Notes: a model not told the origin generated them from the letters alone. Numbered from the stretch's first letter, positions 42,120 through 55,026 are shown. The stretch is 63,610 nt of DNA from Candidatus Omnitrophota bacterium (GCA_016190215.1 JACPRA010000039.1:1-63610); one strand, 5' to 3'. A program made the numbers and translations.

Positions 42120-42139
42120 ACACTGGCGTTACTAACATT

Positions 42140-42988
42140 TTACCGACAACAAACTACAAAGACCGAGCTAGATAAAAATGGATTCTTGTCCGAGCAAGAC
42201 AGATGCTGGCCATTTTCCCCGAACGCTACAACACACCATCGCCCATCATCCTGGCATGCCGACGCGCCAGTACGTCCAGCCTGCAGGTTCAAGGTGAGGC
42301 ACTGGTGCTCATGGGGTTGGGAGGCAAAGCCAGTCGCATCCCTCCCATCCAATAGATCTGCGTCGAGACCCGATCCTGATCCCTGTGGGTTGATGGAGAG
42401 GGGTGGAAAGGTTCCGGTAATGGTTGAGGTAGATTGGGTTCCTGTGTGGTTGGCCCGGTTGAGCAAATCACTGACACGCTTACCATCCACCGTGTCGGCG
42501 TCCAGACCACTGCCTGAGCCTTGGGGACTAATCACGGACGGGGCGAATGTTCCTGTAACCATTGAGGTAGTGATAGGAGTGGTAAGCCTTTCAGCAGCTT
42601 CAGCCCGGATCGCCAGCGGGACGCTGACAATGCGCTGGCGGGGCAGCAGCTCCGGGTCGGTGCCGATCTGGACGGTCAGCCAGCAGGGTTCGCTCCAGTC
42701 AACGCTCGCGAGGGAGGTCACTTGGCCCAAGAAGACGGCGAAGTGACCGCGGGAGAGGGGGATGTTCGGCTGGATTTCTTGCCAGACGACCTGGCCGTTC
42801 GTTTCGGCATCGTAGAGCCGAAAGGTCAAGGCATACGGCCCCTCCAACGCCACGCCTTGCTGATCCACCGCCTGGCCTTGGTAGCGAACCAGGTGGGGGA
42901 TTTCCGCAGCGAGGGGCTGCGCGAATAGAACCCCCAGCAGCCCGACGACGCCCCACGTCATAGCGATGCGATACACCAACTTACTCAT
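42140..42988 (-). CDS. secreted tail-fibre-like protein, paralog B (shared N-terminal module plus GSGLDAD repeats and a Cys-rich C-terminus)
   Basis: Same N-terminal module as paralog A. C-terminus has two SPQGSGSGLDADxxDG repeats, typical of tail-fibre/needle proteins, then a Cys-rich tail. Confidence 0.6.
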   Translation of the reverse strand: MSKLVYRIAMTWGVVGLLGVLFAQPLAAEIPHLVRYQGQAVDQQGVALEGPYALTFRLYDAETNGQVVWQEIQPNIPLSRGHFAVFLGQVTSLASVDWSEPCWLTVQIGTDPELLPRQRIVSVPLAIRAEAAERLTTPITTSMVTGTFAPSVISPQGSGSGLDADTVDGKRVSDLLNRANHTGTQSTSTITGTFPPLSINPQGSGSGLDADLLDGRDATGFASQPHEHQCLTLNLQAGRTGASACQDDGRWCVVAFGENGQHLSCSDKNPFLSSSVFVVCCR

Positions 42989-43060
42989 TTGTTCTTCTCC
43001 TGTGAATTCGGCCTGGCACTATCAGGAACGCCTCCGGTTTTTTCTGACCCCCCGTTTCCC

Positions 43061-43115
43061 CTGCATCATTGCAAGACCTGACCCCTATCTTCAGTGCAAG
43101 ACCTGACCCCTGTCT
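43061..43115. repeat. 30-nt repeat copy 3 plus 22-nt core copy 4 in tandem
   Basis: ctgcatcattgcaagacctgacccctatct tca gtgcaagacctgacccctgtct. Flanked by cgcctccggtttt motifs at 43029-43044 and 43126-43140; a third copy is at 41711-41725. Confidence 0.8.
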
Positions 43116-43147
43116 TACGGTTTTCCGCCTCCGGTTTTCCTGAATCC

Positions 43148-43450
43148 TCATAGATACTCCACCGTCTCTCCGTATTTCTCAAAATTTCCTACCACCGTCT
43201 TGACGATGAAGTCGTAGTCGGCATCAGAAACGGCTTCGTGCTCGTGAGGAGGTAACCACTTTCTATCTTTCGAAGGATAAATCAGTATGCTGGGCTTCCC
43301 GGGAAATCGCTCCATGAATATTTCAATTTTCCTTCCTTTAAACTCGACGAGGACAGAGTCTCTCGTTCCTCCGACAATGTAGCAGTCTTTGGCAATTCGT
43401 ATCTTCAATGCCTGTTTAACATATCCAACTAGCGTTCGGAATAACTTCAT
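43148..43450 (-). CDS. putative immunity protein for the upstream RHS C-terminal toxin
   Basis: 100-aa ORF, visibly AT-richer. Its ATG overlaps the RHS TGA by 1 nt (TGATG). No family recognised; the call rests on position. Confidence 0.55.
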   Translation of the reverse strand: MKLFRTLVGYVKQALKIRIAKDCYIVGGTRDSVLVEFKGRKIEIFMERFPGKPSILIYPSKDRKWLPPHEHEAVSDADYDFIVKTVVGNFEKYGETVEYL

Positions 43451-46400
43451 CACAACCTCCGCAGTACGGTGTTCTTGAAAAACTTCAGGACTGGATTTTC
43501 GATCCGATTGAACACACTATTTACCCTTGGATTCCTCAAGAACGCATATACGGTTCCCTTCGCATTAGCAGCAAAAGTACCTGATGCAGCGTCCCAGATG
43601 CCCTGTGGCAGATTCCTTCTAAGGAATTTTCTTGAGAGAAATTCCAGGCCATTCAACAGCCTGCCTCCAAGCGTTTGTTCCATGAGCTGCCCGACGCGGG
43701 CCCCTCGCGCTACCCCCAAAGCGCCTTCTCCCGAGTACAACACTGTCCGACTGCCAGCATTTAAGGACCCGGCGCCCCCAGCGGCAAGGCTGAGACCAAA
43801 CCCAGCCACTTTTCCCATCTTATAGAGTCCGCTCGATTTGTTCACATACTCGTTTAATCCCAACCGTCCACGAACCCAATCGGTCACTCCGAACGAGAAC
43901 ATATCACCCGTGCCCGCAAAGAAATCCGAAGCTCCTGAGATCAATGGCTCAGCCAGCACAGCAGGGTCGGCAGTTCGGAGCCGAGTTGCCAATTGTTGCA
44001 TTGCTTTGATGTTGAGAACTGCACCCGTACCCACCCCACCAACCTGCGCTGCCTGACCGAACTGTGCGAAGGTCACGCCTGGCAGGGATACCAAGGAACT
44101 GAATGGGGTGGACTCAATCGGACCGGGAGGAAGACTCGGCGAACCTCCTCCCCTTCCGCCGAAGAGCTTAAATCCGAGAAAGATAAGACCGCCGATGATC
44201 CCAATGGCTCCAAGGGCACCTAACCACGGAGCAGCAGCCCCCCACACATCCGATAACGCCGCGACCGCTCCACTGCCGAGACTGACTGGCTCAACCACTA
44301 ATCCTGAGGGATCCGTGAATCGCAGGGGATTATTGCGAACGTAGGCGAAGCGATTGAGGAATTGTGGATCGGCTGGGTTCTGGACGAGGGGGTCGGCGGA
44401 AAGGAAGCGGCCTAGGGATGGGTCGTAGTAGCGGGCTTGGTAGAAGTAGAGGCCGGTTTCAGGGTCGGCGAGCTGGCCGGTGAATTGGTGGGCGACGTCC
44501 ACCGGGCCGGTTTTTTGGCGGACCTCGCCGAAGGGGGCGTAGGCGTAGCGGGCTACGGCGGCGCCGGCGGCATCGGTGACGACGTTGGTGGAGCCCAGGT
44601 GATCCGGGTGGTAGAAGCGCGCGGGGCCACCGGAGGGCTTGGACGCCACCAACATGCCGCCGGCGAAGATGTGCTTCGTGGTGTCGGCCGCGCTGCGCTC
44701 GTACAGATCACCGACGTACGTCGTGCTGGAGGAGGCGGTGGCTTTCTTCACGCGCACGCCGTCGCCGTCGTAGGTCAAGCGGGTGGCGGTGTCTTTGGGC
44801 AGCGGCGGCGCCCACGCGGCTTGGCGGACGGCGTGCAGATAATAAGCGCCGGCCGGGTGGACCTCGGCGGTCTCGACCAGCGAACCGCTGGCTGGGTCGT
44901 ACTCGGCGAAGGCATCGTAATCTTCGCCCCGAACCAGCGGATCCAGCAACCAGCCAGCGGGCTGCGCCGTCAGGGCGCTGGAACCGATAAGGTGCGAGCC
45001 AGGCTCAAGGGAGAAGGCGGGTTTCCTGGTCGGGGTCTTGCCGGTCAGCGTGACTGTCAGGCCGGCGGGAGTGGCGCAGTAGACCTGGTAGCCGCGGCCG
45101 TATTCCAGCGTGGAGAAGTCGTCAAACTGCGGATCGCCGACGTGATCTTCGAGCCGATGGGTCTGCGGGTTGTAGCGGCTGATCTGTTGGATGTCGGCGC
45201 CGAAGGAGGGGAAGACGGCGCGGATGCTGAGGTCATCCGGGATGACCGGCAGGCTGAAGAAGTTCCAGCCGAACTGGAGCGCCACGCTCACCGTCTCCGT
45301 CGTCGGGGCGGCGACATGCACCATCCGGTTGTCGGCGTCCACGTCAAACCGGGTGGCTGACAGTTCGCGGGCGGCGGGGCTTTGCGCGGCGGAGAATTTG
45401 GCGGCCATGCTGCCATTGGCGTCGTACTCAAAGGCCCAGCCTTCGGAGGTGGCCGTCACAGCATGCGGCCGGCGGCCGTTGGGCTGGTCGTAGGAGAGCG
45501 TGGTAGAGCCTTTGACCGTGAGGTTGCCCAACGGATCGTACGCGAACGTCCAGGCTTGATCGGGTTCGTCGGCGCGGGCAAGCCGGTCCAGATCGTCGTA
45601 GGCAAAGGTCTCCACTTCTCCGGCTCGGACGTCCTCTACTCGAGTGAGGTTGCCCACGGCATCATACGCGTACGCAATATCCTGCAGGACGGCCGAGGAC
45701 GCACCGCGGGTGGTCAAATGCGTGGCGCGCAGGGTGCGCGGGTCATAGGCATAGCTGGTGGTGGTGCCGTTGCCCAGCGTCAGCACTGTCGGTTGATCGG
45801 CCGCGTTGTACTCGATGCCCTGGACGTAGCTGGTCGCATCGGACGCCACCGTCTCCACCCCGCCTTGCGCATTGTAGGTATACGCCACCCGCTCACCGTC
45901 GGGATACGTCAGGCTCGTCAGCCGGTCCAATAGATCGAAATTGGCCTCAAACACGTTAGAGGCGCCTTCGATGGTGTGCGTTTCTTTGATCGTCCGGCCC
46001 AGGTTGTCATATTCGAAATGCGCCGAGCTCACCGGGTCTTGGCGGCCCGTCAGGCGGCCAATGGAGAAGGACCCGGCCGAGCCATCATAGGTATAGGTGA
46101 TGGGGCCGGCGTCGGGAATGCCGGAGCCGGCCGGGATCGCAAACTCCACGCGCGTGGGCCGATCCAGCGGGTCGTAGTTGACGCCTTGCTCTACACCCCG
46201 GGCGTCCGTCTGCCGGATAAGGTTGTCCACCGCGTCATACGCCGACGTCCAGCGGCCCATATCCGGATCGTCGAGCTCAGTCCGCCGGCTGAGCGAATCG
46301 TAGGCGGCGCGCGTGACGTTGCCGCGGGCGTCGGTCACCTGAGTCAGGTTGTCGAGCGGGTCGTACTGGTAGGCGGTGCGGAAGATCTGCGAGCCGGCGA

Positions 46401-49400
46401 ACTCCTCCATCTGAGCGAGCCGTCCCTGCGCATCGGCGGTGGAGCGGGAGCGGTGGCCGTTGGCATCGGTGCTCGTGACGGTCCAGTCGTCGTAGGCCGT
46501 GGCCCACGTGGAGCCGTCCGGCTCAACCGTTTCCACAGGACGGCCCACCGCGTCGTACGTGTACGAGACCGCCGCGATGCTCGCGGCCGACGGCTCCTGG
46601 CTCATGGGCACATAGGACGAGGAGAGCGCGGAGCGATACGGAAGCCACTGTTTGGTCACGAGACCACGGTCGTCAAGCTCGGCCGCCCCGGTCACGATTT
46701 GTTGGGCAGGGTCTTCCGCGGGAGCGCGCGTCTGGACGGCGCGGCCCACACCGTCGAAAAAGGTGTAGCTTGTGAGCAACTTCGATTCGCCGCTGCGCTC
46801 CCGGACCTGTGTCGTCACCCGCGAGGGCACTGTGGACACCTCATACGCGAAGGCCATCGTGGGCAACGCCGCGGAGTCATTCGGGCCGATGAGCGCGCTG
46901 GGGCGCCCAAACACATCGTAGCGGGCCTGGGTCGTCACCCCGTTCGGATCAGTGGAGCGGGTCACCAGGCCGAACCGGGCGTCCCGCTCCATCTGCTGGA
47001 CATGGCCGGCGGCATTGGTGAGGCGCACGAGGAAGGCGTGAGACTCGTCATCGTAGCCAAGGGTAGTGGTTCGGGCGAGCGGATCGGTGAGGCGGGTGAC
47101 GTTGCCGTACTGATCGTACGCCAGATGGGTCGTCAGATACTCGTTGGTGGCGTTGAGCCATTCTGACACGGCGGTCAGGTTGCCTGTCGTCGGCGGATCG
47201 GTCAGGGCGGGATGATTGTCGTAGAAGAACCGCTGTTCCTTGAGGCGCGTGGTGCCATCCGGCCCGGCCACGGTAATCACGGCAGGCCGGTTGACGATCC
47301 ATGCCGATGGGTTGAGGGCGTAGCCGACGCGCGTGGTGCGCTCATCCCCGCTCACGCTCGTGTCGCCTTCTTCCGTGATCCGCGTCACGTTGCCGAAATC
47401 GTCGTACTCCAGCGACACGGCTGTCTCTTTCGACGACGCGTTCCCATCTAAGATGGTCTGCGCTTGGCGCTCCAACCGGCAGAAGCTGACCCCGGGGTCA
47501 GGGTCCGTGCATCGCCATGCGCTGGCCTGCTCCGCATAGCGGGCCCCCGACACATCGGTGACGGTGGAGCGCTCGAGGCGGCCTTTCAGGCGGTCATCCT
47601 GATGGAACCGCAACTCCGTGGTGGTGCCCGCGGCGTCGCGCGCCTGCACCACGGCGAACCCACGGAATTCTTTCGTCGCCGGATCGTACCGGCCGCCCTC
47701 GTAGCTGTAGCGCGTCGTCACCTGATGGTCGAGGCCGTCGTCCAGCGTCACGGCATCCACCACCGGCACCACAAAGGGTAAATCCGGCAGCGCATCGTCG
47801 CCGGTGTTGTCCAGGAGCCCGGAGGGGCGGTAGGTGAACGCGGCACTGCCCCCGATCCCATTCATTTGGCGGCTCAGCAGGTCCACGATCGCGCCGGTGG
47901 ATTGCGCCAGCTCGCCGGCGCCGGTGATCGGATCGAACACCCCTGGGTCGGCCAGCCCGTCGCCGTTGAAGTCGCCCACCTGGACCTGGTCGTTGGCGTC
48001 GCGCATGCTGAAGGTGGCAGCTACCGTCCGGGGGCTTCCAAATCCCGCGCCGGTGGCGGGAGCGTAGATCACCTGGCCCGCCGCCCGATTGTAGTACGCG
48101 ACGTCGCTGAGCCCGTCGCCGTTGAAGTCGGCGACAAGATGCTCTTGCCCTGCCCCGAACCCCTCCAGCCAGTTGGCCGATTCGACGAACTGCGATCCGT
48201 TGGAGAGGGCAACGCTGATCTGGCCGGAAGAGCGGTTGGCGAGGCCGATATCCGTCAGCCCATCGCCGTTGAAGTCGCCGGTCAGCGGTTCATGATTCCC
48301 CGAGCCCCAAGTGAGGGCAAAGGAACTCGCCGGCGAAAACACGCTCCCGCTGCTGAGCGCGACGGACCATGCGCCCACATTGTAGGTAGCCAGGTCGGAT
48401 GCGCCGTCGCCGTTGAAATCGCCGACGAACGGAGTGCCGCCGCCGAACGATAGGGCCGGCAGCGCGTCCGGCTGAAAACTCGAGCCGGTGGACCGCGCGA
48501 ACCGCCAGCTCCCGGCCTGATACGTCGCCACGTCGGTTCGGCCGTCGCCGTCCCAATCCCCCAGCACCGGGGCGGTCTGGACGGTGCCGAATCCGGAGAG
48601 CCAGGCGCTTCCCACCTCGAACAATCCGGCCCGGGATGCGGACACCGCCCACGTGCCGCTGGGCTGATCGAAGAAGGCTAGATCGCTGAGCCCATCGCCG
48701 TTGAAATCGCCGGAGAGCGACGGTTGGAGGAACTGCACCGGGTTCATAATGTCCACTTGGCCGGCGGGAGAACCGCTGAGCTGCCAGCCGAAGCCGCTGT
48801 TCTGGTTATAGGAGGTAATTTCAACGAGGTTCCATCCGGCGTTGAGCGACAAGGATTTGGCGGGCCAGCCAGGAATCTCTTGGAGCGTGCCGTTCAGGAA
48901 GACGCGGATCTGGGAATCCTCGGACGTGCTGAACGTGAGCGACGCCGTCTTGGGGCTTGCGACGAACAGATAGGTCCAGAAGTACAGATTCATGTCCCGA
49001 TCAGCGCCGACGGACAGGTTGCCTTGGCCGTTGATATTCCACGTGAGGCCGGGCGCGCTGCCGGAGGGCTGCGTGAACGTCGGAGAGGTTTCGGACCAGC
49101 TCACAATCTGGCTGGGATACAGGGGGGCGCCGTTTTCATCCCCCCAGTCCTTGCTCGCAAACCGCACGTTCCACAAGTTCGAGCCGCGCAACCCCGTATT
49201 CGAGGAGACGATATAGGTGGGTTGCGCGTCCGACTGGTAGGTGAAGGTGGTGGGCGGCAAGGCGGACACGCCGTCCGTTCCCACCTGCGTGACCGATGCC
49301 AGCAGGCTGCGTCCGGTGCGGGGGCTGAGCTGATAGGCCAGTTGATACCGGCGCACGAGCTGATCGGCAGCGGTCACGACGATCTCCTTCAACCGTTTCG

Positions 49401-50181
49401 CGGTCGTGATCCGCGCGCCGCTGCGGGCCGAAGTCTCCGCGTCGGGACGCTCTTCAAGGATGAACTCGACGGCGTTCGACGGAGCCAGCCCGCTCGGCTC
49501 ATGCCCCGCGTAGTCAATCCGTGAGAGATACGATTGCCCGCGGTCCTGCGCGTAGCCGACAGTCAGCGTGTTGCCGTTCGGGGTCATCACCGTTCGCAAG
49601 ACCCACCGGAACACGCCAGCAGGAGCGGCTTGCTCGGTCTCCGGAGTCCCGCCGAAGAGATAGCGCGTGCCGGAGGGATCCCGCGCCTCCCAGCCGTCGG
49701 CGCCCTTCTGCTCCACGCGAAAGAACGCGCCCTCATCCTTCGCCCGGTAGGTGCCGTCCGGAATCCGCGCCAGCTCCAGGCTGATCCCGTGGAGATTCAG
49801 CAAGAACGTGTCGGTGCCGTCGTACCGCGGCACGCCGTTTTTGGTGGAACGCTCGATCGCGCCGACTTCCATATTCCATCCGACCCCCACCCACCCGTTC
49901 CGGCTTGAGGACGCATAGGTCAGGGCGAGGGCAGGCTGCAGGCCGCGCCGGCCCGGCGGGAGGAGAATGGGCACCGACGTGGTCGCGCGCCCGGTGAACC
50001 GATCCGCCTGAAACCCCTCAATCAGCGTGGCGGCAGGCGGCGGCGCGGATCCCGCCGATTCGATGGTCGAGCCCAGGTGAGCCGCTTCAACATGAGGCGG
50101 AAATGCCGCTTGAGCGATGACCAGCGCGAGCGCCGTGACCGCCGCAATTGTTCGTCGGAAAAGAGCGGCTGGAGAATCCAT
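43450..50181 (-). CDS. RHS/YD-repeat polymorphic toxin with Tc-toxin B-C-fusion-like architecture
   Basis: Signal peptide. SpvB-type N-terminus (FTGRATTSVPILLPPGRRGLQPALALTYASS..GWGVGW-like). About seven FG-GAP/VCBS repeats (GDFNGDGLSD). Many YD repeats (YDxxGN). RHS core YYDPSLGRFLSADP...NPLRFTDPSGL. Then a 282-aa AT-richer C-terminal module. Confidence 0.9.
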   Translation of the reverse strand: MDSPAALFRRTIAAVTALALVIAQAAFPPHVEAAHLGSTIESAGSAPPPAATLIEGFQADRFTGRATTSVPILLPPGRRGLQPALALTYASSSRNGWVGVGWNMEVGAIERSTKNGVPRYDGTDTFLLNLHGISLELARIPDGTYRAKDEGAFFRVEQKGADGWEARDPSGTRYLFGGTPETEQAAPAGVFRWVLRTVMTPNGNTLTVGYAQDRGQSYLSRIDYAGHEPSGLAPSNAVEFILEERPDAETSARSGARITTAKRLKEIVVTAADQLVRRYQLAYQLSPRTGRSLLASVTQVGTDGVSALPPTTFTYQSDAQPTYIVSSNTGLRGSNLWNVRFASKDWGDENGAPLYPSQIVSWSETSPTFTQPSGSAPGLTWNINGQGNLSVGADRDMNLYFWTYLFVASPKTASLTFSTSEDSQIRVFLNGTLQEIPGWPAKSLSLNAGWNLVEITSYNQNSGFGWQLSGSPAGQVDIMNPVQFLQPSLSGDFNGDGLSDLAFFDQPSGTWAVSASRAGLFEVGSAWLSGFGTVQTAPVLGDWDGDGRTDVATYQAGSWRFARSTGSSFQPDALPALSFGGGTPFVGDFNGDGASDLATYNVGAWSVALSSGSVFSPASSFALTWGSGNHEPLTGDFNGDGLTDIGLANRSSGQISVALSNGSQFVESANWLEGFGAGQEHLVADFNGDGLSDVAYYNRAAGQVIYAPATGAGFGSPRTVAATFSMRDANDQVQVGDFNGDGLADPGVFDPITGAGELAQSTGAIVDLLSRQMNGIGGSAAFTYRPSGLLDNTGDDALPDLPFVVPVVDAVTLDDGLDHQVTTRYSYEGGRYDPATKEFRGFAVVQARDAAGTTTELRFHQDDRLKGRLERSTVTDVSGARYAEQASAWRCTDPDPGVSFCRLERQAQTILDGNASSKETAVSLEYDDFGNVTRITEEGDTSVSGDERTTRVGYALNPSAWIVNRPAVITVAGPDGTTRLKEQRFFYDNHPALTDPPTTGNLTAVSEWLNATNEYLTTHLAYDQYGNVTRLTDPLARTTTLGYDDESHAFLVRLTNAAGHVQQMERDARFGLVTRSTDPNGVTTQARYDVFGRPSALIGPNDSAALPTMAFAYEVSTVPSRVTTQVRERSGESKLLTSYTFFDGVGRAVQTRAPAEDPAQQIVTGAAELDDRGLVTKQWLPYRSALSSSYVPMSQEPSAASIAAVSYTYDAVGRPVETVEPDGSTWATAYDDWTVTSTDANGHRSRSTADAQGRLAQMEEFAGSQIFRTAYQYDPLDNLTQVTDARGNVTRAAYDSLSRRTELDDPDMGRWTSAYDAVDNLIRQTDARGVEQGVNYDPLDRPTRVEFAIPAGSGIPDAGPITYTYDGSAGSFSIGRLTGRQDPVSSAHFEYDNLGRTIKETHTIEGASNVFEANFDLLDRLTSLTYPDGERVAYTYNAQGGVETVASDATSYVQGIEYNAADQPTVLTLGNGTTTSYAYDPRTLRATHLTTRGASSAVLQDIAYAYDAVGNLTRVEDVRAGEVETFAYDDLDRLARADEPDQAWTFAYDPLGNLTVKGSTTLSYDQPNGRRPHAVTATSEGWAFEYDANGSMAAKFSAAQSPAARELSATRFDVDADNRMVHVAAPTTETVSVALQFGWNFFSLPVIPDDLSIRAVFPSFGADIQQISRYNPQTHRLEDHVGDPQFDDFSTLEYGRGYQVYCATPAGLTVTLTGKTPTRKPAFSLEPGSHLIGSSALTAQPAGWLLDPLVRGEDYDAFAEYDPASGSLVETAEVHPAGAYYLHAVRQAAWAPPLPKDTATRLTYDGDGVRVKKATASSSTTYVGDLYERSAADTTKHIFAGGMLVASKPSGGPARFYHPDHLGSTNVVTDAAGAAVARYAYAPFGEVRQKTGPVDVAHQFTGQLADPETGLYFYQARYYDPSLGRFLSADPLVQNPADPQFLNRFAYVRNNPLRFTDPSGLVVEPVSLGSGAVAALSDVWGAAAPWLGALGAIGIIGGLIFLGFKLFGGRGGGSPSLPPGPIESTPFSSLVSLPGVTFAQFGQAAQVGGVGTGAVLNIKAMQQLATRLRTADPAVLAEPLISGASDFFAGTGDMFSFGVTDWVRGRLGLNEYVNKSSGLYKMGKVAGFGLSLAAGGAGSLNAGSRTVLYSGEGALGVARGARVGQLMEQTLGGRLLNGLEFLSRKFLRRNLPQGIWDAASGTFAANAKGTVYAFLRNPRVNSVFNRIENPVLKFFKNTVLRRL

Positions 50182-53072
50182 CAAGGCGCCTGGGGCGGAA
50201 CCGCCGGCCGCGCCACGTAGACATCCACCGGCTTCGAGGCTTGCCCGCCGAAGCCGTCCCGCACCCGAATCTCAAACCGTCGGCGTCCGAGGATGTCGGA
50301 CGGCGGCGTCCAGGCATGCGCAGCCTGCGGTGTCCAGTCCGCCAGCACTTGACCGTCCAACAGTATTTGGTACATCAGCGGGTCACCCTCGCGGTCGAGG
50401 GCCGTCACCGTGATCGTCGTCGGGATCTCTATGTGGACTTTGGGACCATCCGTCAGCTCGACCGCGGCAATCTCCGGCACCGTGCCGCGCACGACAGTGT
50501 AGGTGCGTACGGTCTGAAAGCCTCGAGGGCTGACGGCGGTGACCGTGATGGTGTTGGGACCCTCCGCCAGCGGCACGGTTCCTTCAAATTTCCGCCCGGC
50601 GCGGCTCGCCGGTTGGCCGTTGATGTCCACCCGGGTCAGGCTGTCATCCACGGTCCCCGTGAACACCAGCGGGGTGAGGTTGGTTTTTGCCGGCGGAGCG
50701 GCCTCCATCACCGGAGGAAGCTGGTCCAGGATGACATTGGCCGTCGCCGACGTGCTGACCACGCCTGAACGGCTCTTCGCGACGATCGCGAAGAGGTTGT
50801 CCCCTTCCGTCAGCCCGACGACCGCCGTCCACGTCGTGGCATCGCCGGCCGGAACCACCTCGACCCCATTGATCCAAATGGAGGTGCCGGGGGTTTTCGT
50901 GCCGGACAACGCGGCGGAATCGGCATCCGTCACGATCAATGATTGTCCGACAGTGGGACGCGGCGGTGGTGCGGTATCCAGGGTGACGGAGATCGCGTGC
51001 GAGGCCTGGTTGCCGGCCGGATCCACCGCTGTCGCCGTGATCGCGTTGGCCCCTTCGGTCAGCGTCATTACCGCAGAGAACGTTCCAAGCGTGACCGGCG
51101 CGGGGATATCATTCACGCGCACGGTGGCTTGCGGGTCATCCACGGTGCCCAACACCGTCAGCGAACTCGTGCCGGAGGGAATCATCGGAGCCTCGGTGGG
51201 ATAGCCAGCCCACAGCGTCAGGATGCCGTTGGTGACCGCCCCCGCCGTCAACGATCCGACGCTCACGACGCTGCGCACGCCTCCGGCCTCCGCCACGCCG
51301 CCACCCACACTGGCCAGGACGTATTGGACCATGGTGAAGACGTTGTTTGACAATAGCGCGATGGGAAACGGCCCGTGGGGCTGTGATGTTTTTGGCGTCG
51401 CGGGCCTGGACCAAAAATAGTTCAACGCGCTGCCGGGCCCCAGCACGGCACCGTCTGTCGGCTGGGTGATCTGAATGCGTGGAGGTGTCGTGTCCGGAGC
51501 CCCGGGCACCGTCAATGGCAGCGTGACGGACGCGCTCCGATGGGTCGGGTCGGACACGATGAACGTCACCGCATGGCTGCCGCCCTGATCCGCGCCCGGG
51601 ACCCAGCGGAAGAACCGTCGCTCGGGATCGAACGCGGCCCCCGTCGGCAGACCGGTTGCACTGTAGGTCAGCGGCTCGTCGTCTTCGTCCTTCCCCTGCA
51701 CATAGAAGACCACAATCTTATTCGGTGCGAGATTACTGGGCGGCCACCGGAGGCCGAAGTCCGTCACCAGGACACTGAAATCCACGGCGCTGATGCGGCT
51801 GTCGCCGTCGAGATCAGCGCGGGGATCATACCGGGCGTCGCCGACGCTCGTCCCGAACGCCGTCACCAGGACGGAATAGTCCACGATATCCACGCCGCCA
51901 TCGCCGTTGATATCGGGGCTGAGAATCCGCAGGGTGGGCGGGTGCGGCTCCGGCGCGATGACCGTGATCGCCAGGGTCTGTGGAAGCGAGGCGAGGTCGC
52001 CGTCGTTGGCCACGGCCGTGAGGGTGTAGGTACCCGCCTGCGTCCGGGCGGGTTGCCAGAAGAAACAAAACCGGTTCGAACCAGGACCGCGATACCCGGC
52101 CACCAGGCGCAGGATATGGATGGAGTCCACACTACTCAGTTGGCCGTCTTGATCCACATCGGCTGCCGCTCGCTGCGCTGGGGTGAGTTGCTGGAGGCCC
52201 ACGACCTGTCGCAGCACGAACAGCGCATCTACACTCTCCACCTGCCCGTTGCGATTCACATCCCCCATCGGATATACCTGCGCGCCGGCCGGCAAGGGCG
52301 TCACCTGCAGGCTGACCCGGTGATCGTCCGGATCGGTGGCGGTCATCAGGACGCTCAGGGACTCCTCGGTCCGAATGGTCCGCGCCTCGAGGGGTCCGAG
52401 AATAGGAGCGCGGTTCCTCGGAGCGATGTCTGGAGCGGGTGTCCCGCTGGACGATGTATCGTTGGAAGAACCCTCGGAGGGAAGAGGCGTTGGGCTCAAC
52501 ACCGGTTGGGTTGCAGGCTTGAAGACGAGAGATGGCGCGGAGGACAGCGTCACCGGGGCAGCAGGTTTTCCTCGTATTCCCCGCGAGGAGGCCATGGGGG
52601 AGGACTGAGGAGTGACCGGCACAGCCTCTGGAACCGGTTTCAATGCGATATGGCGCTGGAGCTGATCTGTCCACGGCGACATCCACGTCGTGGTGGTCGC
52701 TGACTGATAGCCTGACGCGGTGGCTGACACGGTCACCCGCTGCCAACCGTGCGGGTGGGGCATGGTTGTCGTGTAGGCGCCCTCTATTGCCCGCACAGTT
52801 TGGGTCACCTTCGCCCGGGGAAGAGTGATCGTGACGCGAGCCTGCGGCAGGGGCTGCCGCGTAGCGGCATTGATGAGCCGTCCCTGGATCGTGACGGTCG
52901 GGCTGGCTGCGTTCCCGGATTCGGTCGCTTTCGCCTGAACGTCGACAGCACCGGCAAAACCCACGCATACCCCGAGCACGAAACGGCTGACCGCCAGCGG
53001 GCTACAGCCACAATGCTGACGCGGCGGTCGCGTTGAAGAAGAAGCGTAGCGGTCGTATGGCTTGGACATCAT
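50181..53072 (-). CDS. large secreted protein with CarboxypepD_reg-like, cadherin/Ig-like and dockerin-type repeats
   Basis: Signal peptide (..FVLGVCVGFAGAVDVQA). Two pairs of dockerin-like Ca-binding repeats (DVNRNGQVESVDALFVLRQV, DVDQDGQLSSVDSIHILRLV, DINGDGGVDIVDYSVLV, DLDGDSRISAVDFSVLV). Several Ig-like modules (TLTEGANAITATAVD..). Its TGA overlaps the RHS ATG. Confidence 0.7.
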   Translation of the reverse strand: MMSKPYDRYASSSTRPPRQHCGCSPLAVSRFVLGVCVGFAGAVDVQAKATESGNAASPTVTIQGRLINAATRQPLPQARVTITLPRAKVTQTVRAIEGAYTTTMPHPHGWQRVTVSATASGYQSATTTTWMSPWTDQLQRHIALKPVPEAVPVTPQSSPMASSRGIRGKPAAPVTLSSAPSLVFKPATQPVLSPTPLPSEGSSNDTSSSGTPAPDIAPRNRAPILGPLEARTIRTEESLSVLMTATDPDDHRVSLQVTPLPAGAQVYPMGDVNRNGQVESVDALFVLRQVVGLQQLTPAQRAAADVDQDGQLSSVDSIHILRLVAGYRGPGSNRFCFFWQPARTQAGTYTLTAVANDGDLASLPQTLAITVIAPEPHPPTLRILSPDINGDGGVDIVDYSVLVTAFGTSVGDARYDPRADLDGDSRISAVDFSVLVTDFGLRWPPSNLAPNKIVVFYVQGKDEDDEPLTYSATGLPTGAAFDPERRFFRWVPGADQGGSHAVTFIVSDPTHRSASVTLPLTVPGAPDTTPPRIQITQPTDGAVLGPGSALNYFWSRPATPKTSQPHGPFPIALLSNNVFTMVQYVLASVGGGVAEAGGVRSVVSVGSLTAGAVTNGILTLWAGYPTEAPMIPSGTSSLTVLGTVDDPQATVRVNDIPAPVTLGTFSAVMTLTEGANAITATAVDPAGNQASHAISVTLDTAPPPRPTVGQSLIVTDADSAALSGTKTPGTSIWINGVEVVPAGDATTWTAVVGLTEGDNLFAIVAKSRSGVVSTSATANVILDQLPPVMEAAPPAKTNLTPLVFTGTVDDSLTRVDINGQPASRAGRKFEGTVPLAEGPNTITVTAVSPRGFQTVRTYTVVRGTVPEIAAVELTDGPKVHIEIPTTITVTALDREGDPLMYQILLDGQVLADWTPQAAHAWTPPSDILGRRRFEIRVRDGFGGQASKPVDVYVARPAVPPQAP

Positions 53073-53106
53073 TTCGGAAGGTGAAGGCGCTCGCGCGAAC
53101 CAAAAT

Positions 53107-53135
53107 AGCATAGGAAGCGCCCGGCCCGTTGTCAA
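53107..53135 (-). promoter_or_regulatory. strong sigma70 promoter TTGACA-17-TATGCT for the Ig/dockerin-RHS-immunity operon
   Basis: Minus strand reads ttgaca acgggccgggcgcttcc tatgct, preceded by an AT-rich UP-like stretch; lies in the 103-nt gap after the secretin gene. Confidence 0.7.
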
Positions 53136-53175
53136 TAAATATTTCAGAAAATTCAAATCAGTGGGCCAAAAAATC

Positions 53176-55026
53176 TCAACTGGAGGGGTGATACTCCACC
53201 GCCAGCCGGAAGCGCACGGAGTCGGCCGCGACGGCATCGGGAAACGGCGGGAAGGGGGCCAGCGCCTCCAGCGCCTCGCGCGCGGCCTGGACGAACGCTT
53301 CCCCCTGCGCGCTGACGATCTGTGGCGAACCGGTGAGGCTGCCGTCGCGGGCGATCGTCAGGGCCAGCGACACCAAGCCGGGGCCTGCGGCGGCGTGCTG
53401 CAGCGCCTGGGCCAGCCGGGCGCTGATCAGCGCGCGCAGGAGCGCTTGGTACGCCTCCGGCACCGGCGGCTCACGCTCGCCCGCCGCGCGAGGCTCGTCC
53501 GGAAGCGCGGAGTCTGGAAACTGCGTGACGGGCTCGCCGGCGGTGGAGACGATTTGCGGCGTCAAGAAGACGACCAGCTCGGTTTTTCGGCTCGAATCCA
53601 CCCGGCTGCGGAAGGCCGCGCCCAGCAGCGGCACGCGGCCCAAGAGGGGCACTTGGGATTGGGCCCGCTCCGTCTTCGTATCAATCAGCCCGCCGATGAC
53701 CACCGTGGCGCCGCTTTTCACAAGGACGTTCGTTTCCGCTTCCGTCGTCGTCACGATGGGGATGCGGTTCGCCTGGAAGGTTTCCACCTTGGCCGTGCTG
53801 ACCTCCGGCCGGACCTTCAACTGCACGTGGCCGTCCCGCTTGATGCTGGGCGTGACGAACAGTTTCGTCCCCACGTCCACGAATTGCACTTGCGGGGCAT
53901 TGACCGTCGCCCCGGTGGCCGGCACGGTGGTTGTCACCGTGACGACGGCTTCTTTCGTGCCGACCAGGATGCGCGCCTCCTGCTTATCCGAGACGGTGAT
54001 CCGCGGGTTGGAGACCGTGTCTACCTTGCCGAATTTTTTGAGCGCCTCCATGATGACCTGGGTCTGCCCGTTGTCGCTCAAAAACTTCAAGGCCACGCCG
54101 GTCGCGCTGCCGCCGATGATATCGCTGAGCGCCCGGAAGTTGCCTCGCGTCTGCAGGTTCACCCCATCGAACACCCGCTGCCAATCAATGCCGAGGCTCT
54201 CCTCATCCGTCAGCTCCACCTTGATGATCTTCGCCTCGATCAGCACCTGCGCGTCCCGCTCGTCGAAGGCGCGGATCACCTGGTCAATCCGCGCGACCGC
54301 CTCCGGCACATCCGTCACGATGGCCGTATTGGTCCGCGCATCGAAGGTAAAGAGCCCCACGCCGGGCGTCAAGAACTCTTGCGTCTTCTCTTTCAATTTT
54401 TCCGCGTCGGCGTAATCCAGGGGGTACACGCGCGTCTCCGTCGGGCGATCCAGCCACTGCACCAGGCGCTCCATCTCCGCAAGGCGGAGCGGCCCGTCGG
54501 TCAGGATCACGGTATTGGACGGCTCGTCCACCACCACTTGGCCGACCGCCGACTTCAGTTGGTTCAGCACGGTCGCTACTTGCTCCGCCTTGGCATAGCG
54601 CAGCGGGATCACTATGTTGCGCCGGCGCTGCTGGAACGGCTGGCCGTAGAGCAGCTCGTACTCCCGCGCGGTCATCACGCTGATGACGTCGCCGGTGCGC
54701 TCGTACGCCAGCTCGTTGGCCTCCACGATCCGCTCAAACGCTTCCCACACGCCGACGTCCTTGGCGAAGACTGTCACCCGGCCGGTCACGTTATGCCCCG
54801 CCACGAAGCTCAGCCCGCTTTTTTGGGACAACAGCTTCAGGACATCCAGAATGTCCACACCTTTCAAATCCAGGGAGAAGCGCTGGTCCGGGCCGACGGG
54901 TTCCTCACCGGCCGCGGTCTCGGATTGGGCCCATGCCGTCGGGCTGAGCCCGGCCACGGATTCCGCCATGGCGCTTCCGAGGATGAGGACCAGCCACCAA
55001 CTCAGCGCACGTCTCATAACACTCAT
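53176..55026 (-). CDS. gspD: secretin (GspD/PilQ family) with a C-terminal TonB_C-like extension
   Basis: Signal peptide, N-domain repeats, secretin core (VVIGGLI....Q.VPLLG.VPLLG..F, VVFLTPQIV), then about 97 extra residues resembling a TonB C-terminal domain. Confidence 0.85.
   Translation of the reverse strand: MSVMRRALSWWLVLILGSAMAESVAGLSPTAWAQSETAAGEEPVGPDQRFSLDLKGVDILDVLKLLSQKSGLSFVAGHNVTGRVTVFAKDVGVWEAFERIVEANELAYERTGDVISVMTAREYELLYGQPFQQRRRNIVIPLRYAKAEQVATVLNQLKSAVGQVVVDEPSNTVILTDGPLRLAEMERLVQWLDRPTETRVYPLDYADAEKLKEKTQEFLTPGVGLFTFDARTNTAIVTDVPEAVARIDQVIRAFDERDAQVLIEAKIIKVELTDEESLGIDWQRVFDGVNLQTRGNFRALSDIIGGSATGVALKFLSDNGQTQVIMEALKKFGKVDTVSNPRITVSDKQEARILVGTKEAVVTVTTTVPATGATVNAPQVQFVDVGTKLFVTPSIKRDGHVQLKVRPEVSTAKVETFQANRIPIVTTTEAETNVLVKSGATVVIGGLIDTKTERAQSQVPLLGRVPLLGAAFRSRVDSSRKTELVVFLTPQIVSTAGEPVTQFPDSALPDEPRAAGEREPPVPEAYQALLRALISARLAQALQHAAAGPGLVSLALTIARDGSLTGSPQIVSAQGEAFVQAAREALEALAPFPPFPDAVAADSVRFRLAVEYHPSS

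What the first reader, a model, noticed from the sequence alone, without database searches (positions are those of the whole stretch)
43148..53135. Self-contained operon: Ig/dockerin protein, Tc-toxin BC-fusion-like RHS cocoon, immunity gene, with no TcA or T6SS partner
A strong promoter (53107-53135) precedes three genes joined by TGATG overlaps. The middle protein has the order SpvB N-domain, FG-GAP beta-propeller-like repeats, YD-repeat shell, RHS core (..DPSGL) and a variable C-terminal toxin. That is the order found in TcB plus TcC of insecticidal ABC toxins, fused here into one chain with its own Sec signal peptide. Canonical BC cocoons need a TcA translocator, and most proteobacterial Rhs effectors ride on T6SS (VgrG/PAAR). 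Neither is present in this window. Instead the upstream gene encodes a ~960-aa Ig/dockerin-repeat protein. The presence of an immunity-like gene points to an antibacterial or self-protective context rather than an insecticidal one. This combination may represent an undescribed delivery mode for an encapsulated toxin.
Basis: partly seen in the sequence, partly recalled or inferred. Interest (0 to 1): 0.8.

Follow-up and report, generated by a model that had tools for sequence, protein, structure and literature searches.

The report
Mobile Rhs toxin island with fibre partners
A 12.4-kb mobile island in a groundwater Omnitrophota genome encodes a secreted Tc-toxin-like Rhs "cocoon" carrying an NAD-destroying toxin with its immunity protein, and it travels with an Ig-domain protein and two phage-tail-fibre-like adhesins that probably aim it at target cells.

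Summary
The three overlapping genes, the promoter-like site and the domain order are all present as described.

1. A complete type II secretion system (gspE to gspD) lies directly upstream on the same strand. Two related contigs run gspD straight into fabI-like and smc. So window 40718-53175 is an inserted island, and the T2SS adjacency is secondary.

2. The island also holds two paralogous secreted fibre proteins (D, E) and a REP-transposase fragment. D and E have an N-domain homologous to the Bdellovibrio mosaic-adhesive-trimer (MAT) N-domain and alternative phage-tail-fibre-like tips.

In about 15 other loci (Omnitrophota, Nitrospiraceae, "Planctomycetales" MAGs) such fibre genes and an Ig protein matching the C-terminal 390 aa of protein A sit just upstream of an orthologous Rhs gene. 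The dockerin half of A is found only here.

The toxin is an ADP-ribosyl-cyclase-type NADase paired with Imm74, carried on a low-GC swapped cassette. A hydrophobic helix precedes it and is conserved across the family.

The Rhs protein belongs to the described "TcdB/TcaC" class of polymorphic toxins. I found no description of the Ig-plus-fibre accessory module. Verdict: new variant of a known kind; the mechanism is inferred.

The parts
40718..53175 (-). Inserted genomic island: the whole Rhs module between gspD and the fabI-like gene.
   Evidence: Metagenome contigs L113 and L112 are collinear with the window for gspL through gspD (L113 4667-6036 = window 54878-53512). They then continue after 118 nt into the FabI-like gene (74% aa identity; L113 6506-7287 = window 40696-39915) and smc.
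53107..53135 (-). Sigma-70-like promoter candidate for genes A-B-C, located inside the island.
   Evidence: TTGACA, 17-nt spacer, TATGCT; 10 of 12 positions match. Not statistically enriched.
50184..53072 (-). Gene A, a secreted 963-aa multi-domain protein. Signal peptide; CarboxypepD_reg-like domain; two type I dockerins (residues 269-324 and 384-440); He_PIG Ig domain; then the conserved C-terminal module.
   Evidence: Pfam; dockerin matches in PDB. The N-terminal 574 aa has no hit in 31 related loci.
50184..51350 (-). Conserved partner module of A (residues 575-963): Glucodextran_B x2, Cadherin-like and Big_9 Ig-like domains.
   Evidence: 37-49% identical over about 280-400 aa to proteins encoded next to Rhs orthologues in L004, L006, L009, L010, L011, L012, L093, L094, L098, L100, L101, L103 and others.
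43453..50181 (-). Gene B, a 2243-aa TcB-TcC-fusion-like Rhs cocoon protein. Signal peptide 1-33; SpvB N-domain; an unassigned beta-rich insert (about residues 320-490); six-bladed FG-GAP propeller (about 490-750); TcdB_toxin_midN; YD shell with an unassigned insert (about 1640-1830); Rhs core.
   Evidence: Pfam and NCBIfam; PDB sequence matches to TcdB2-TccC3, YenB, SpvB and T6SS Rhs; blade motifs; 1171 homologues at E<=1e-10 among the 8000 candidates scored, and all but a few of the 120 listed share the full domain set.
44299..44541 (-). Rhs-associated core (residues 1881-1961) ending in ...NNPLRFTDPSGL, the predicted autoproteolytic cleavage site.
   Evidence: TIGR03696 E=1.7e-23; motif conserved in homologues.
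44161..44217 (-). Hydrophobic helix ALGAIGIIGGLIFLGFKLF at the start of the cleaved C-terminal region; a Pro-rich linker (PSLPPGPI) follows it.
   Evidence: Kyte-Doolittle mean 2.07 over 19 aa. 77 of 108 homologues have such a segment within 70 aa of the core motif, against 0.12% of control windows. The segment is shared with the TNT-toxin homologue P0002.
43453..43929 (-). ADP-ribosyl-cyclase (CD38-like) NADase toxin domain, about residues 2085-2243. Low-GC cassette.
   Evidence: Foldseek hits 1-37 are all ARC-family or NADase structures (9ro8, 9ouf/Tac1, CD38, Aplysia cyclase, BST-1, Vibrio RDTND), on a low-pLDDT model. Profile hit to 5bnf over W..S..FA..A.G.V..FL...E, E=0.24. Pfam Rib_hydrolayse E=0.33. 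GC 0.47-0.54.
43151..43450 (-). Gene C, Imm74 immunity protein (100 aa).
   Evidence: Pfam PF15603 E=4.1e-10. Imm74 is the cognate immunity family of ARC toxins (PMC3482391; Tac1/Tci1 in PMC12356396).
42143..42988 (-). Gene D, a MAT-like secreted fibre protein (282 aa). Signal peptide; conserved beta-sandwich N-domain; 'SPQGSGSGLDADxxDG' repeats; Cys-rich tip.
   Evidence: NF053851 Bdello_MAT_N E=4.6e-8; PHROG tail-fibre hits; N-domain homologues (49-73% identity) upstream of Rhs in other loci.
41690..42082 (-). REP-associated tyrosine transposase (Y1_Tnp) ORF, probably truncated at the C-terminus.
   Evidence: Pfam Y1_Tnp E=4.6e-11 covering profile positions 6-109 of 121; NF047646 E=8e-13. 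Y1_Tnp genes also flank Rhs modules in L006, L007, L011, L012, L100 and L101.
40771..41604 (-). Gene E, a MAT-like secreted fibre protein (278 aa). Same N-domain as D (300 nt at 83% identity) but a phage tail-collar-like tip with an HTH..H.H motif.
   Evidence: NF053851 E=2.1e-7, and 35 of 35 family members hit it. AF2 N-domain pLDDT about 90. BFVD top hits are phage tail collar proteins, E=2e-6. 287 unannotated homologues.
41624..43121 (-). Four copies of a REP-like element (core GGGGTCAGGTCTTGCA) at 41635, 42099, 43070 and 43095. One or two copies lie upstream of each of D, the RAYT ORF and E.
   Evidence: 4 exact copies against 0.05 expected; none elsewhere in the window or in 110 loci.
53176..63599 (-). 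Neighbouring T2SS cluster, not part of the island. Gene order: gspE (cut by the window end), F, G, H, (I), J, K, L, M, merR, AAA_22/ExeA-like, gspC-like, gspD secretin with a TonB_C tail.
   Evidence: Pfam and NCBIfam. Candidate outer-membrane export route; the link is inferred only.

Best explanation
Window 40718-53175 is a horizontally acquired island in a high-GC groundwater Omnitrophota chromosome. It encodes a TcA-independent, Sec-exported Rhs-cocoon toxin system.

The toxin carrier (protein B). B is a single-chain TcB+TcC-type shell. Its Rhs core is predicted to cut after DPSGL. That leaves a 282-aa cargo inside the shell: a hydrophobic helix, a Pro-rich linker and an ADP-ribosyl-cyclase-type NAD(P)+ glycohydrolase. 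Imm74 (C) protects the producer and its kin.

The partners. Three further secreted proteins belong to the system. One is the C-terminal four-Ig module of A. The other two are the paralogous MAT-like fibres D and E. D and E share an N-terminal beta-sandwich 'attachment' domain and carry alternative phage-tail-fibre-like tips.

Inferred mechanism. The fibres, and possibly A, recognise surface structures of a target cell, either prey or a competitor. They dock through the Ig module and/or the six-bladed propeller of B. In this way they would supply the targeting function that TcA receptor-binding domains supply in Tc toxins. After release, the encapsulated hydrophobic helix would help the NADase enter the target membrane. 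NAD(P)+ depletion would then stop growth.

Export. Crossing the producer's outer membrane is presumed to use a T2SS-type route. One is adjacent here, but only by accident of insertion.

Shown versus inferred. Shown: gene content, homologies, synteny, island borders and the cassette structure. Inferred: physical association of the parts, surface display versus release, the route of entry and the target organism.
For: - B architecture and Rhs core.
- Conserved Sec-type signal peptides across homologues.
- ARC toxin with Imm74.
- Swapped cassette: GC falls to 0.47-0.54 at 43.0-44.0 kb. Identity to the closest homologue P0002 (TNT toxin) collapses after about residue 2045, while the pre-toxin helix and linker are shared.
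- Hydrophobic segment after the cleavage motif in 77 of 108 homologues, against 0.12% of control windows.
- Conserved synteny Ig module - (SpoVG or 4-helix IVP) - MAT-like fibre(s) - Rhs - small ORF(s), often followed by Y1_Tnp, in about 15 loci from Omnitrophota, Nitrospiraceae and 'Planctomycetales' MAGs. Fibre-to-Rhs gaps run from an overlap to 44 nt.
- Fibre and Rhs homologues co-occur on six more contigs, judged by matching contig lengths.
- D/E N-domain homologous to Bdello_MAT_N in 35 of 35 members.
- Tips are tail-collar-like, collagen (2.6e-10), CBM_4_9 or TNF-like, or carry the SDxxxK motif typical of S74 domains (seen by eye). This parallels the MAT family (PMC10769870).
- A, B, C, D and E were all acquired together in one island relative to L112/L113.
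- Organism: LigA is 81% and 68% identical to two Omnitrophota MAGs.
Against: - No experiment or complex prediction supports physical contact between B, A, D and E.
- Three fibre(+Ig) loci (L096, L102, L104) show no Rhs gene in the flank available, and L007/L008 has an Rhs gene without a fibre gene. The partnership is frequent but not obligatory.
- The MAT-N-like domain is a very large superfamily (26,910 cluster representatives). It also occurs in unrelated contexts, so it is not specific to Rhs systems.
- D and E are only about 280 aa and lack the long trimeric shaft of Bdellovibrio MATs.
- The ARC assignment rests on a low-confidence model (pLDDT 46) and sub-threshold profile hits, although these converge with the Imm74 match.
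- The rest of the genome is unseen. A TcA-like or other partner elsewhere cannot be excluded.
Confidence: 0.55

Rival explanations
1. It is an ordinary Tc (ABC) toxin B-C unit whose TcA translocator is encoded elsewhere in the genome. The Ig and fibre genes are irrelevant neighbours.
For: B matches TcdB2-TccC3, YenB and YenC2 in sequence and has SpvB, propeller and TcdB_toxin_midN domains in TcB order. Orphan TcC genes far from TcA are known (PMC7861908). Only 63.6 kb of this genome is visible.
Against: - There is no TcA-sized ORF in the window.
- No TcA-type Pfam family occurs in the nine related loci with listed genes.
- An immunity gene and polymorphic antibacterial-type toxins (ARC, TNT) are typical of the family.
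- B has its own signal peptide.
- TcdB_toxin_midC was not detected.
- The cargo carries a hydrophobic helix, which I do not recall being described for Tc cargos (own knowledge, not checked here).
Confidence: 0.07
2. The Rhs protein is a stand-alone Sec/T2SS-secreted (or cell-surface) polymorphic toxin of the TcdB/TcaC class. It needs no dedicated partners. The Ig and MAT-like fibre genes form an independent surface-adhesion unit that merely shares islands and regulation with it.
For: Fibre(+Ig) loci without a nearby Rhs gene exist (L096, L102, L104). An Rhs locus without a fibre gene exists (L007/L008). The MAT-N-like domain is widespread outside Rhs contexts. Bdellovibrio MATs act as adhesins with no reported Rhs link.
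Against: The order is tight and recurrent, and near-overlapping gene junctions span at least two or three phylum labels. All parts were co-acquired in one 12.4-kb island. The A-B junction is a TGATG overlap, which suggests translational coupling.
Confidence: 0.28
3. It is a T6SS-delivered Rhs effector whose T6SS, VgrG and PAAR are encoded elsewhere.
For: The best PDB sequence match over the YD shell is a T6SS Rhs (8qja, E=3.5e-35).
Against: B has a cleavable Sec signal peptide that is conserved in the family. It has no PAAR, prePAAR or VgrG domain. A TcB-type SpvB and propeller take the place of the T6SS N-terminal plug. No T6SS genes occur in the window or in the related loci.
Confidence: 0.02
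4. The module is a dedicated substrate set of the adjacent T2SS: a T2SS-plus-cargo operon, like the T2SS-like loci reported upstream of giant genes in Omnitrophota.
For: A complete T2SS ends 41 nt upstream of the A-B-C promoter hexamer (103 nt before the A start codon) on the same strand, with no predicted terminator between. All four exported proteins have Sec signal peptides. West-Roberts et al. 2023 report T2SS-like loci upstream of large Omnitrophota surface proteins.
Against: Related contigs L112 and L113 have the same T2SS followed directly by fabI-like and smc. No secretin or GspF hit occurs within 10 kb of the module in 31 other loci. The adjacency is therefore a local insertion, not a conserved linkage. 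Use of this or another T2SS for export remains plausible.
Confidence: 0.08

Closest known systems
'TcdB/TcaC' class of polymorphic toxins (Zhang, de Souza, Anantharaman, Iyer & Aravind 2012, PMC3482391)
   Same: Signal peptide, SpvB domain, integrin-like beta-propeller, RHS repeats, a variable C-terminal toxin and an adjacent immunity gene. The Tox-ARC/Imm74 pairing is listed in the same paper.
   Different: That catalogue does not list Tox-ARC under the TcdB/TcaC route. It does not list Omnitrophota under TcdB/TcaC, and it names only TcdB as a signature neighbouring gene. The Ig-module and MAT-like fibre partners, and the post-cleavage hydrophobic helix, do not appear in the passages I read.
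Tc (ABC) toxin B-C cocoon, for example Photorhabdus TcdB2-TccC3 and Yersinia YenB-YenC2
   Same: SpvB N-domain, six-bladed propeller, TcdB_toxin_midN, YD shell and an Rhs core with the DPxGL autoproteolysis motif. The toxin would be encapsulated. Sequence matches.
   Different: One polypeptide with a Sec signal. No TcA nearby. An immunity gene is present. The cargo begins with a hydrophobic helix. The organism is an environmental nanobacterium rather than an insect pathogen.
Tac1-Tci1 (Streptococcus parasanguinis T7SS ARC toxin with Imm74; PMC12356396) and the Pantoea T6SS ARC toxin (PDB 9ro8)
   Same: A CD38-like ADP-ribosyl-cyclase toxin domain paired with an Imm74 immunity protein. The W..S..FA and ..E.. 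active-site motifs are conserved.
   Different: Delivered here by an Rhs cocoon with a signal peptide rather than by an LXG/T7SS or T6SS carrier. The subfamily is very divergent: only 8 homologues were found among 5.8 billion proteins.
Bdellovibrio bacteriovorus MAT (mosaic adhesive trimer) chimeric fibre proteins (Caulton et al. 2024, PMC10769870)
   Same: Signal peptide, then immediately a conserved beta-rich N-domain (NF053851 hits in 35 of 35 members), then interchangeable C-terminal tips: collagen, TNF-like, CBM, tail-collar, or an SDxxxK/S74-type motif. The organism has a suspected predatory or host-dependent lifestyle.
   Different: D and E are about 280 aa rather than about 1000 aa and have no long beta-helical shaft. 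Their scores are below NCBI's family cutoff. They are genetically coupled to an Rhs toxin and an Ig protein, which is not reported for Bdellovibrio MATs.
WapA / teneurin-type surface YD-shell proteins
   Same: Sec-exported YD-shell proteins with a C-terminal toxin, used in contact-dependent antagonism (own knowledge). A TEN_YD-shell profile match is present.
   Different: B has a TcB-type SpvB and propeller front end. No cell-wall or membrane anchor is recognisable in B.

Membership tests
Tc (ABC) toxin complex | TcB-like module: SpvB N-domain, beta-propeller, TcdB_toxin_mid domains | tested here: met
   PF03534 E=9e-21, FG-GAP_3 E=1e-22 with six DxDGDG blades, PF12256 E=4.5e-23. TcdB_toxin_midC was not detected.
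Tc (ABC) toxin complex | TcC-like YD shell with an Rhs core and a hypervariable C-terminal cargo of 200-400 aa | tested here: met
   TIGR03696 E=1.7e-23; DPSGL motif; C-terminal region of 282 aa.
Tc (ABC) toxin complex | A TcA pentameric translocator encoded with or near the B and C genes | tested here: not met
   No TcA-sized ORF or TcA-type domain in the 63.6-kb window or in the nine related loci with listed genes. The rest of the genome could not be examined.
TcdB/TcaC-class polymorphic toxin (Zhang et al. 2012) | Signal peptide followed by SpvB and an integrin-like beta-propeller, then RHS repeats | tested here: met
   definition quoted.
TcdB/TcaC-class polymorphic toxin (Zhang et al. 2012) | Polymorphic C-terminal toxin with an adjacent cognate immunity gene | tested here: met
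   C-terminal regions differ among homologues (ARC here, TNT in P0002, others). Imm74 lies downstream. Low-GC cassette.
T6SS Rhs effector | N-terminal PAAR, prePAAR or VgrG-binding region, and T6SS genes | tested here: not met
   No such domains in B. A Sec signal peptide is present instead. No T6SS genes in the window.
ARC (CD38-like) NADase toxin with Imm74 | Imm74 immunity protein encoded immediately downstream | tested here: met
   PF15603 E=4.1e-10, above the gathering score (40.1 against 27.1 bits).
ARC (CD38-like) NADase toxin with Imm74 | ADP-ribosyl-cyclase fold with a catalytic Glu and the Trp/Ser motif | tested here: inconclusive
   Foldseek hits 1-37 are all ARC-family or NADase structures, but the model has pLDDT 46. 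Profile against 5bnf E=0.24 and Pfam PF02267 E=0.33, both below threshold. W, S, and E in RIExP are invariant in 7 homologues.
ARC (CD38-like) NADase toxin with Imm74 | NAD(P)+ hydrolysis and neutralisation by the immunity protein | not testable with these tools
   Needs an enzyme assay or a toxicity-rescue experiment.
MAT (mosaic adhesive trimer) fibre family | Conserved beta-rich N-domain of about 130 aa directly after the signal peptide | tested here: inconclusive
   NF053851 E=4.6e-8 (D) and 2.1e-7 (E), and 35 of 35 relatives hit it with best E=9.7e-11. All are below the curated 60-bit cutoff. The AF2 beta-sandwich has pLDDT about 90. The domain is homologous; family membership by NCBI's criterion is not reached.
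MAT (mosaic adhesive trimer) fibre family | Interchangeable C-terminal adhesive tips on a shared N-terminal part | tested here: met
   D and E share the N-domain (83% nt identity over 300 nt) but have unrelated tips. Tips in related loci: collagen, CBM_4_9, TNF-like, tail-collar-like.
MAT (mosaic adhesive trimer) fibre family | Long (about 1000 aa) intertwined trimeric beta-helical shaft | tested here: not met
   D is 282 aa and E is 278 aa; relatives are 230-600 aa. Trimerisation could not be tested.
Genomic island | Present or absent between conserved flanking genes in related genomes, with mobile-element traces | tested here: met
   L112 and L113 lack the 12.4 kb between gspD and fabI-like. 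A RAYT fragment and REP-like repeats lie inside it.

The most novel reading that the evidence does not exclude
This is a TcA-independent Rhs-cocoon delivery machine. Short trimeric MAT-like fibres with swappable tips, together with a four-Ig adaptor, would dock onto the TcB-type propeller of a secreted or surface-held cocoon. Binding to a prey or competitor surface glycan would open the gate. The released cargo would then insert itself through its own encapsulated transmembrane helix. Under this reading the Ig module or the cocoon would also be the long-sought binding partner type for the MAT N-domain, and the module would be a predation or antagonism weapon of Omnitrophota nanobacteria.
Probability: 0.2. 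Interest if true: 0.85.

Novelty: new variant of a known kind. Interest (0 to 1): 0.6.

Why it matters
BC-type Rhs cocoons with signal peptides but no TcA are very common in environmental genomes: this search found 1171 homologues at E<=1e-10. How their toxins reach a target is not known.

This locus and about 15 relatives point to a specific, testable set of partners:
- a four-Ig protein;
- short fibre proteins with a MAT-type attachment domain and exchangeable tail-fibre-like tips;
- a hydrophobic helix packaged with the toxin.

If these parts work together, the system links two fields that have not been connected: Tc/Rhs toxin encapsulation and the chimeric fibre adhesins of predatory bacteria. 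It would also give a first molecular handle on how uncultivated Omnitrophota attack or compete with other cells.

The finding also shows that the MAT-N-like domain is a very large family (26,910 cluster representatives) that matched no Pfam model here.

Tried and rejected
- Exact look-up of B in the contig index found nothing on record.
- A genome scan with B found only three distant Chloroflexota or Anaerolinea relatives.
- Pfam on D, E, the two unassigned inserts of B and the C-terminal region gave nothing significant.
- phmmer of the C-terminal region against PDB gave no hit. A profile that still contained Rhs-core columns only re-found Rhs cores.
- The AF2 model of the toxin domain was poor (pLDDT 46). 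I used it only because its hits 1-37 agree with the independent Imm74 evidence.
- Foldseek of the E model against PDB gave only generic transthyretin- or CnaB-like beta-sandwiches (best E=3.8e-3). I draw no functional inference from that.
- The secretin scan of GTDB genomes gave one distant hit. The metagenome scan was needed to find L112 and L113.
- The REP-like 16-mer is absent from all other fetched loci, so it is lineage-specific and not a conserved regulatory site of the module.
- A DGR explanation for the variable fibre tips was considered, because bAvd/23S_rRNA_IVP four-helix genes occur in related loci. I rejected it: no reverse transcriptase appears in any listed locus.
- A Tat signal for B (FRRT) was considered and rejected, because the twin arginine is not conserved in homologues.
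- A dedicated T2SS operon was considered and largely rejected on the insertion evidence.

Full report
**1. What is in the sequence**

Three ORFs lie on the minus strand.
- Gene A most plausibly starts at the ATG at 53072 and encodes 963 aa.
- Gene B starts at the ATG at 50181 and encodes 2243 aa.
- Gene C starts at the ATG at 43450 and encodes 100 aa.
- The A/B and B/C junctions both read TGATG, so each stop codon overlaps the next start.
- A consensus-like promoter lies between the secretin stop and the A start: TTGACA at 53135-53130, a 17-nt spacer, TATGCT at 53112-53107. Matches of this quality are as frequent as chance in the region (3 found, 2.7 expected). Only its position speaks for it.

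- SpvB (E=9e-21);
- FG-GAP_3 (E=1e-22), with six DxDGDG blades at residues 492-737;
- TcdB_toxin_midN (E=4.5e-23);
- RHS/YD repeats (E=1e-39);
- Rhs-associated core, TIGR03696 (E=1.7e-23), ending in ...NNPLRFTDPSGL at residue 1961.

The N-terminus of B is a Sec-type signal peptide. Its cleavage region (..EA|SHLGSSTASAGSAPPP) is conserved across homologues.

A carries two type I dockerins plus CarboxypepD_reg, He_PIG, Glucodextran_B x2, Cadherin-like and Big_9 domains.

C is Imm74 (E=4e-10).

No TcA-sized ORF, VgrG or PAAR was found among the window's ORFs.

**2.

The genes immediately upstream on the same strand form a complete type II secretion system. In order they are GspE (cut by the window end), F, G, H, a probable I, J, K, L, M, a MerR regulator, an ExeA-like AAA_22 ATPase, a GspC-like protein, and a GspD secretin with a TonB_C-like tail. 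The secretin stop is at 53176.

**3. The adjacency to the T2SS is secondary, and the module is an island**

Two metagenome contigs, L113 and L112, have a secretin 61% identical to the window's. They are collinear with the window from gspL to gspD. After 118 nt they continue into a FabI-like gene (74% aa identity to window 39911-40717) and then smc.

The 12.4 kb at window 40718-53175 is therefore an insertion relative to these relatives.

In 31 other loci carrying the Rhs module or its fibre genes, no secretin or GspF lies within 10 kb.

The T2SS remains a plausible export route, because all exported components have Sec signals in a diderm. It is not a conserved partner.

**4. The module extends downstream**

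Inside the island, downstream of C, lie three more genes:
- gene D (42988-42143, 282 aa);
- a REP-associated tyrosine transposase ORF (42082-41690; Y1_Tnp E=5e-11, NF047646 E=8e-13; probably truncated at the C-terminus);
- gene E (41604-40771, 278 aa).

D and E are paralogues. Each has a signal peptide, a shared N-domain of about 115 aa (300 nt at 83% identity) and an unrelated C-terminus.

Four copies of a REP-like element (core GGGGTCAGGTCTTGCA) sit upstream of D, the transposase ORF and E. The element occurs nowhere else in the window or in the other loci.

**5. Conserved partners in other genomes**

B has 1171 homologues at E<=1e-10 among the 8000 candidates scored. All but a few of the 120 listed carry the same full set of domains. 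Those with names are mostly Omnitrophota and Nitrospiraceae MAGs.

Gene tables and tblastn on 31 loci show a recurrent order:
- a divergent HTH+Cupin regulator;
- an Ig protein;
- SpoVG or a four-helix 23S_rRNA_IVP protein;
- one or two D/E-like genes;
- the Rhs gene;
- small ORF(s);
- often a Y1_Tnp gene.

The Ig proteins match A residues 575-963 at 37-49% identity over about 280-400 aa. The D/E-like proteins match the D/E N-domain at 49-73%.

All three components co-occur in about 15 distinct loci besides the window. Fibre-to-Rhs junctions run from an overlap to 44 nt.

In the closest relative, L009 (Rhs 62% identical), the fibre gene lies downstream of the Rhs gene, as it does in the window.

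The N-terminal 574 aa of A, including the dockerins, has no counterpart in any other locus.

There are exceptions.
- L007/L008 has an Rhs gene without a fibre gene.
- L096, L102 and L104 have fibre (and Ig) genes with no Rhs gene in the flank available.

**6. What D and E are**

Pfam finds nothing in D or E.

NCBIfam matches the N-domain to NF053851, the N-domain of the Bdellovibrio 'mosaic adhesive trimer' (MAT) chimeric fibre proteins. E-values are 4.6e-8 for D and 2.1e-7 for E. All 35 of 35 aligned relatives match, with best E=9.7e-11. All scores are below NCBI's 60-bit cutoff.

AF2 models the N-domain as a confident beta-sandwich (pLDDT about 90).

The tip of E matches phage tail-collar proteins in BFVD (E=2e-6 and 3e-5). 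The tip of D hits tail-fibre PHROGs.

Tips in other loci include:
- a collagen triple helix (E=2.6e-10);
- CBM_4_9 (weak);
- TNF-like (weak);
- an SDRKHK sequence that fits the SDxxxK S74 motif (the S74 reading is by eye).

This is the MAT blueprint described by Caulton et al. 2024: signal peptide, conserved N-domain, swappable tips, display on the predator surface, and an N-domain partner that is still unknown (PMC10769870). D and E differ in being much shorter. That paper mentions no Rhs or toxin linkage.

The N-domain superfamily is large: 26,910 cluster representatives at E<=1e-3. Distant members lie outside Rhs contexts.

**7. The toxin**

The 282-aa region after DPSGL has four parts: a strongly hydrophobic helix (ALGAIGIIGGLIFLGFKLF), a Pro-rich linker, a helical stretch and a C-terminal domain of about 160 aa.

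Four lines of evidence identify the C-terminal domain as an ADP-ribosyl-cyclase (CD38-like) NADase.
- The cognate Imm74 lies downstream. [quoted passage not shown]
- The motifs VLYSG, LxExT, W..S..FA..A.G.V..FL and RIExP are conserved in its 7-8 homologues.
- A profile hit to 5bnf covers exactly the active-site segment (E=0.24). 5bnf is deposited as an uncharacterised protein; from memory it is porcine CD38. Pfam PF02267 gives E=0.33.
- Foldseek hits 1-37 are all ARC-family or NADase structures: the Pantoea T6SS ARC toxin 9ro8 (E=9e-4), Tac1 (9ouf), CD38, Aplysia cyclase, BST-1 and the Vibrio RDTND NADase domain. The AF2 model itself is poor (pLDDT 46).

The toxin domain and Imm74 form a low-GC cassette (0.47-0.54 against about 0.65).

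The closest homologue, P0002, shares the helix and linker but switches to a TNT toxin after about residue 2045.

A hydrophobic 19-mer within 70 aa of the core motif is present in 77 of 108 homologues, against 0.12% of control windows.

**8. Organism**

LigA is 81% and 68% identical to two groundwater Omnitrophota MAGs; the next best matches are about 52%. The first 17 kb of the window is a dcw cell-wall cluster, so the context is chromosomal.

Omnitrophota are thought to be host-dependent or predatory nanobacteria. T2SS-like loci have been noted upstream of their giant surface proteins (bioRxiv 10.1101/2023.11.21.568195).

None of the Omnitrophota papers I could search describes this Rhs module.

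**9. Interpretation**

Established here:
- the island and its borders;
- the six genes;
- the TcB-TcC-type single-chain cocoon;
- the Rhs core;
- the Imm74 gene and the swapped cassette;
- the conserved linkage with an Ig module and MAT-like fibres.

Inferred, in decreasing order of confidence:
- the cargo is an NADase neutralised by C (high);
- B autoprocesses and encapsulates its cargo as Tc and Rhs shells do (high, by homology);
- the Ig module and the fibres function with B in target recognition (moderate);
- the packaged hydrophobic helix mediates membrane entry (low to moderate);
- export uses a T2SS (moderate);
- the target is another prokaryote (moderate; NAD is universal, and an immunity gene is needed for self-protection whatever the target).

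**10. Comparison with known systems and verdict**

B is a member of the published TcdB/TcaC class of polymorphic toxins. It works like a Tc B-C cocoon but fails the TcA criterion for membership of the Tc complex.

The toxin and immunity pair is a divergent member of the ARC/Imm74 kind.

D and E are MAT-like in domain homology and in logic, but not by NCBI's cutoff or by length.

The combination is, as far as I could find, undescribed: a cocoon, a four-Ig protein, short chimeric fibres and a cargo-borne hydrophobic helix, moving together as an island. I rate it a new variant of a known kind, of moderate to high interest, with all mechanistic steps still to be tested.

Noticed in passing
window 5098-7926 (-): A single 942-aa ORF combines MurG domains (Glyco_transf_28 N and C) with a complete MurC-type Mur ligase. 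This is an apparent MurG-MurC fusion inside the dcw cluster.
   Followed up: no
window 53176-55026 (-), residues 525-613: The GspD/PilQ-type secretin carries a C-terminal TonB_C-like domain (Pfam E=5e-5; NCBIfam tonB_Cterm E=1e-3). This seemed an unusual addition for a secretin.
   Followed up: no
window 56445-56681 (-) and 56712-56739: A MerR-family regulator gene is embedded in the T2SS cluster between the gspM-like gene and the ExeA-like AAA_22 gene. It is preceded by the best promoter-like site in the region (TTGACC, 16-nt spacer, TATAAT; 11 of 12). The same arrangement is conserved in L113.
   Followed up: partly
window 41635-41650, 42099-42114, 43070-43085, 43095-43110 (-): A REP-like element of about 38 nt with the exact 16-mer core GGGGTCAGGTCTTGCA occurs four times, only in the island. 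Copies lie upstream of D, the RAYT ORF and E (two upstream of D). A second short repeat, CGCCTCCGGTTTT, accompanies it. Recombination between the elements, or between the 300-nt repeat shared by D and E, could swap or delete fibre tips.
   Followed up: partly
window B residues about 320-490 (about 48710-49220) and about 1640-1830 (about 44690-45260): B has two segments with no Pfam match. One is a beta-rich segment between SpvB and the propeller that looks PA14- or lectin-like by eye. The other is an insert in the YD shell beginning VSVALQFGWNFFSLPVIP. In relatives, a GH115_C-type beta-sandwich is annotated inside one Rhs protein (L011/P0013) and in a separate gene upstream of another (L007).
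   Followed up: partly
related loci L006, L007, L010, L011, L012, L093, L094, L098, L115 and others: A divergently oriented HTH_31+Cupin_2 regulator (54-78% identical between loci) accompanies the module in other genomes. HisKA_7TM sensor kinases, response regulators and a SpoVG homologue often do too. All are absent from the window's island.
   Followed up: partly
L006 18625-19854; L010 24752-26935; L011 1-969; L106 677-2846: Orphan Rhs C-terminal fragments (TEN_YD-shell hits followed by small ORFs) lie near the main Rhs gene in relatives. This is typical of toxin-cassette displacement. The window has none.
   Followed up: no
L096, L102, L104: MAT-like fibre genes, with or without the Ig module and SpoVG, occur with no Rhs gene in up to 10 kb of available downstream sequence. 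The fibre and Ig pair may therefore also work without an Rhs cargo, or with another one.
   Followed up: partly
window 41185-41523 (E N-domain) against the protein library: The MAT-N-like beta-sandwich domain has 26,910 cluster representatives at E<=1e-3 and 5,483 at E<=1e-10. It is usually at residues about 25-135 of proteins of 230-600 aa, and sometimes occurs in three copies in proteins of about 1500 aa. D and E nevertheless matched no Pfam model.
   Followed up: partly
window 106-372 (-): An ORF resembles the 23S_rRNA_IVP/bAvd-type four-helix-bundle proteins that sit inside the Rhs module in other loci (42% identity over 89 aa). Here it is about 40 kb away from the island, next to the dcw cluster.
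   Followed up: no
window 21088-22038 (-): A tyrosine recombinase (Phage_integrase plus SAM_1), probably XerC/D-like, lies 19 kb from the island. No link to the island was seen.
   Followed up: no
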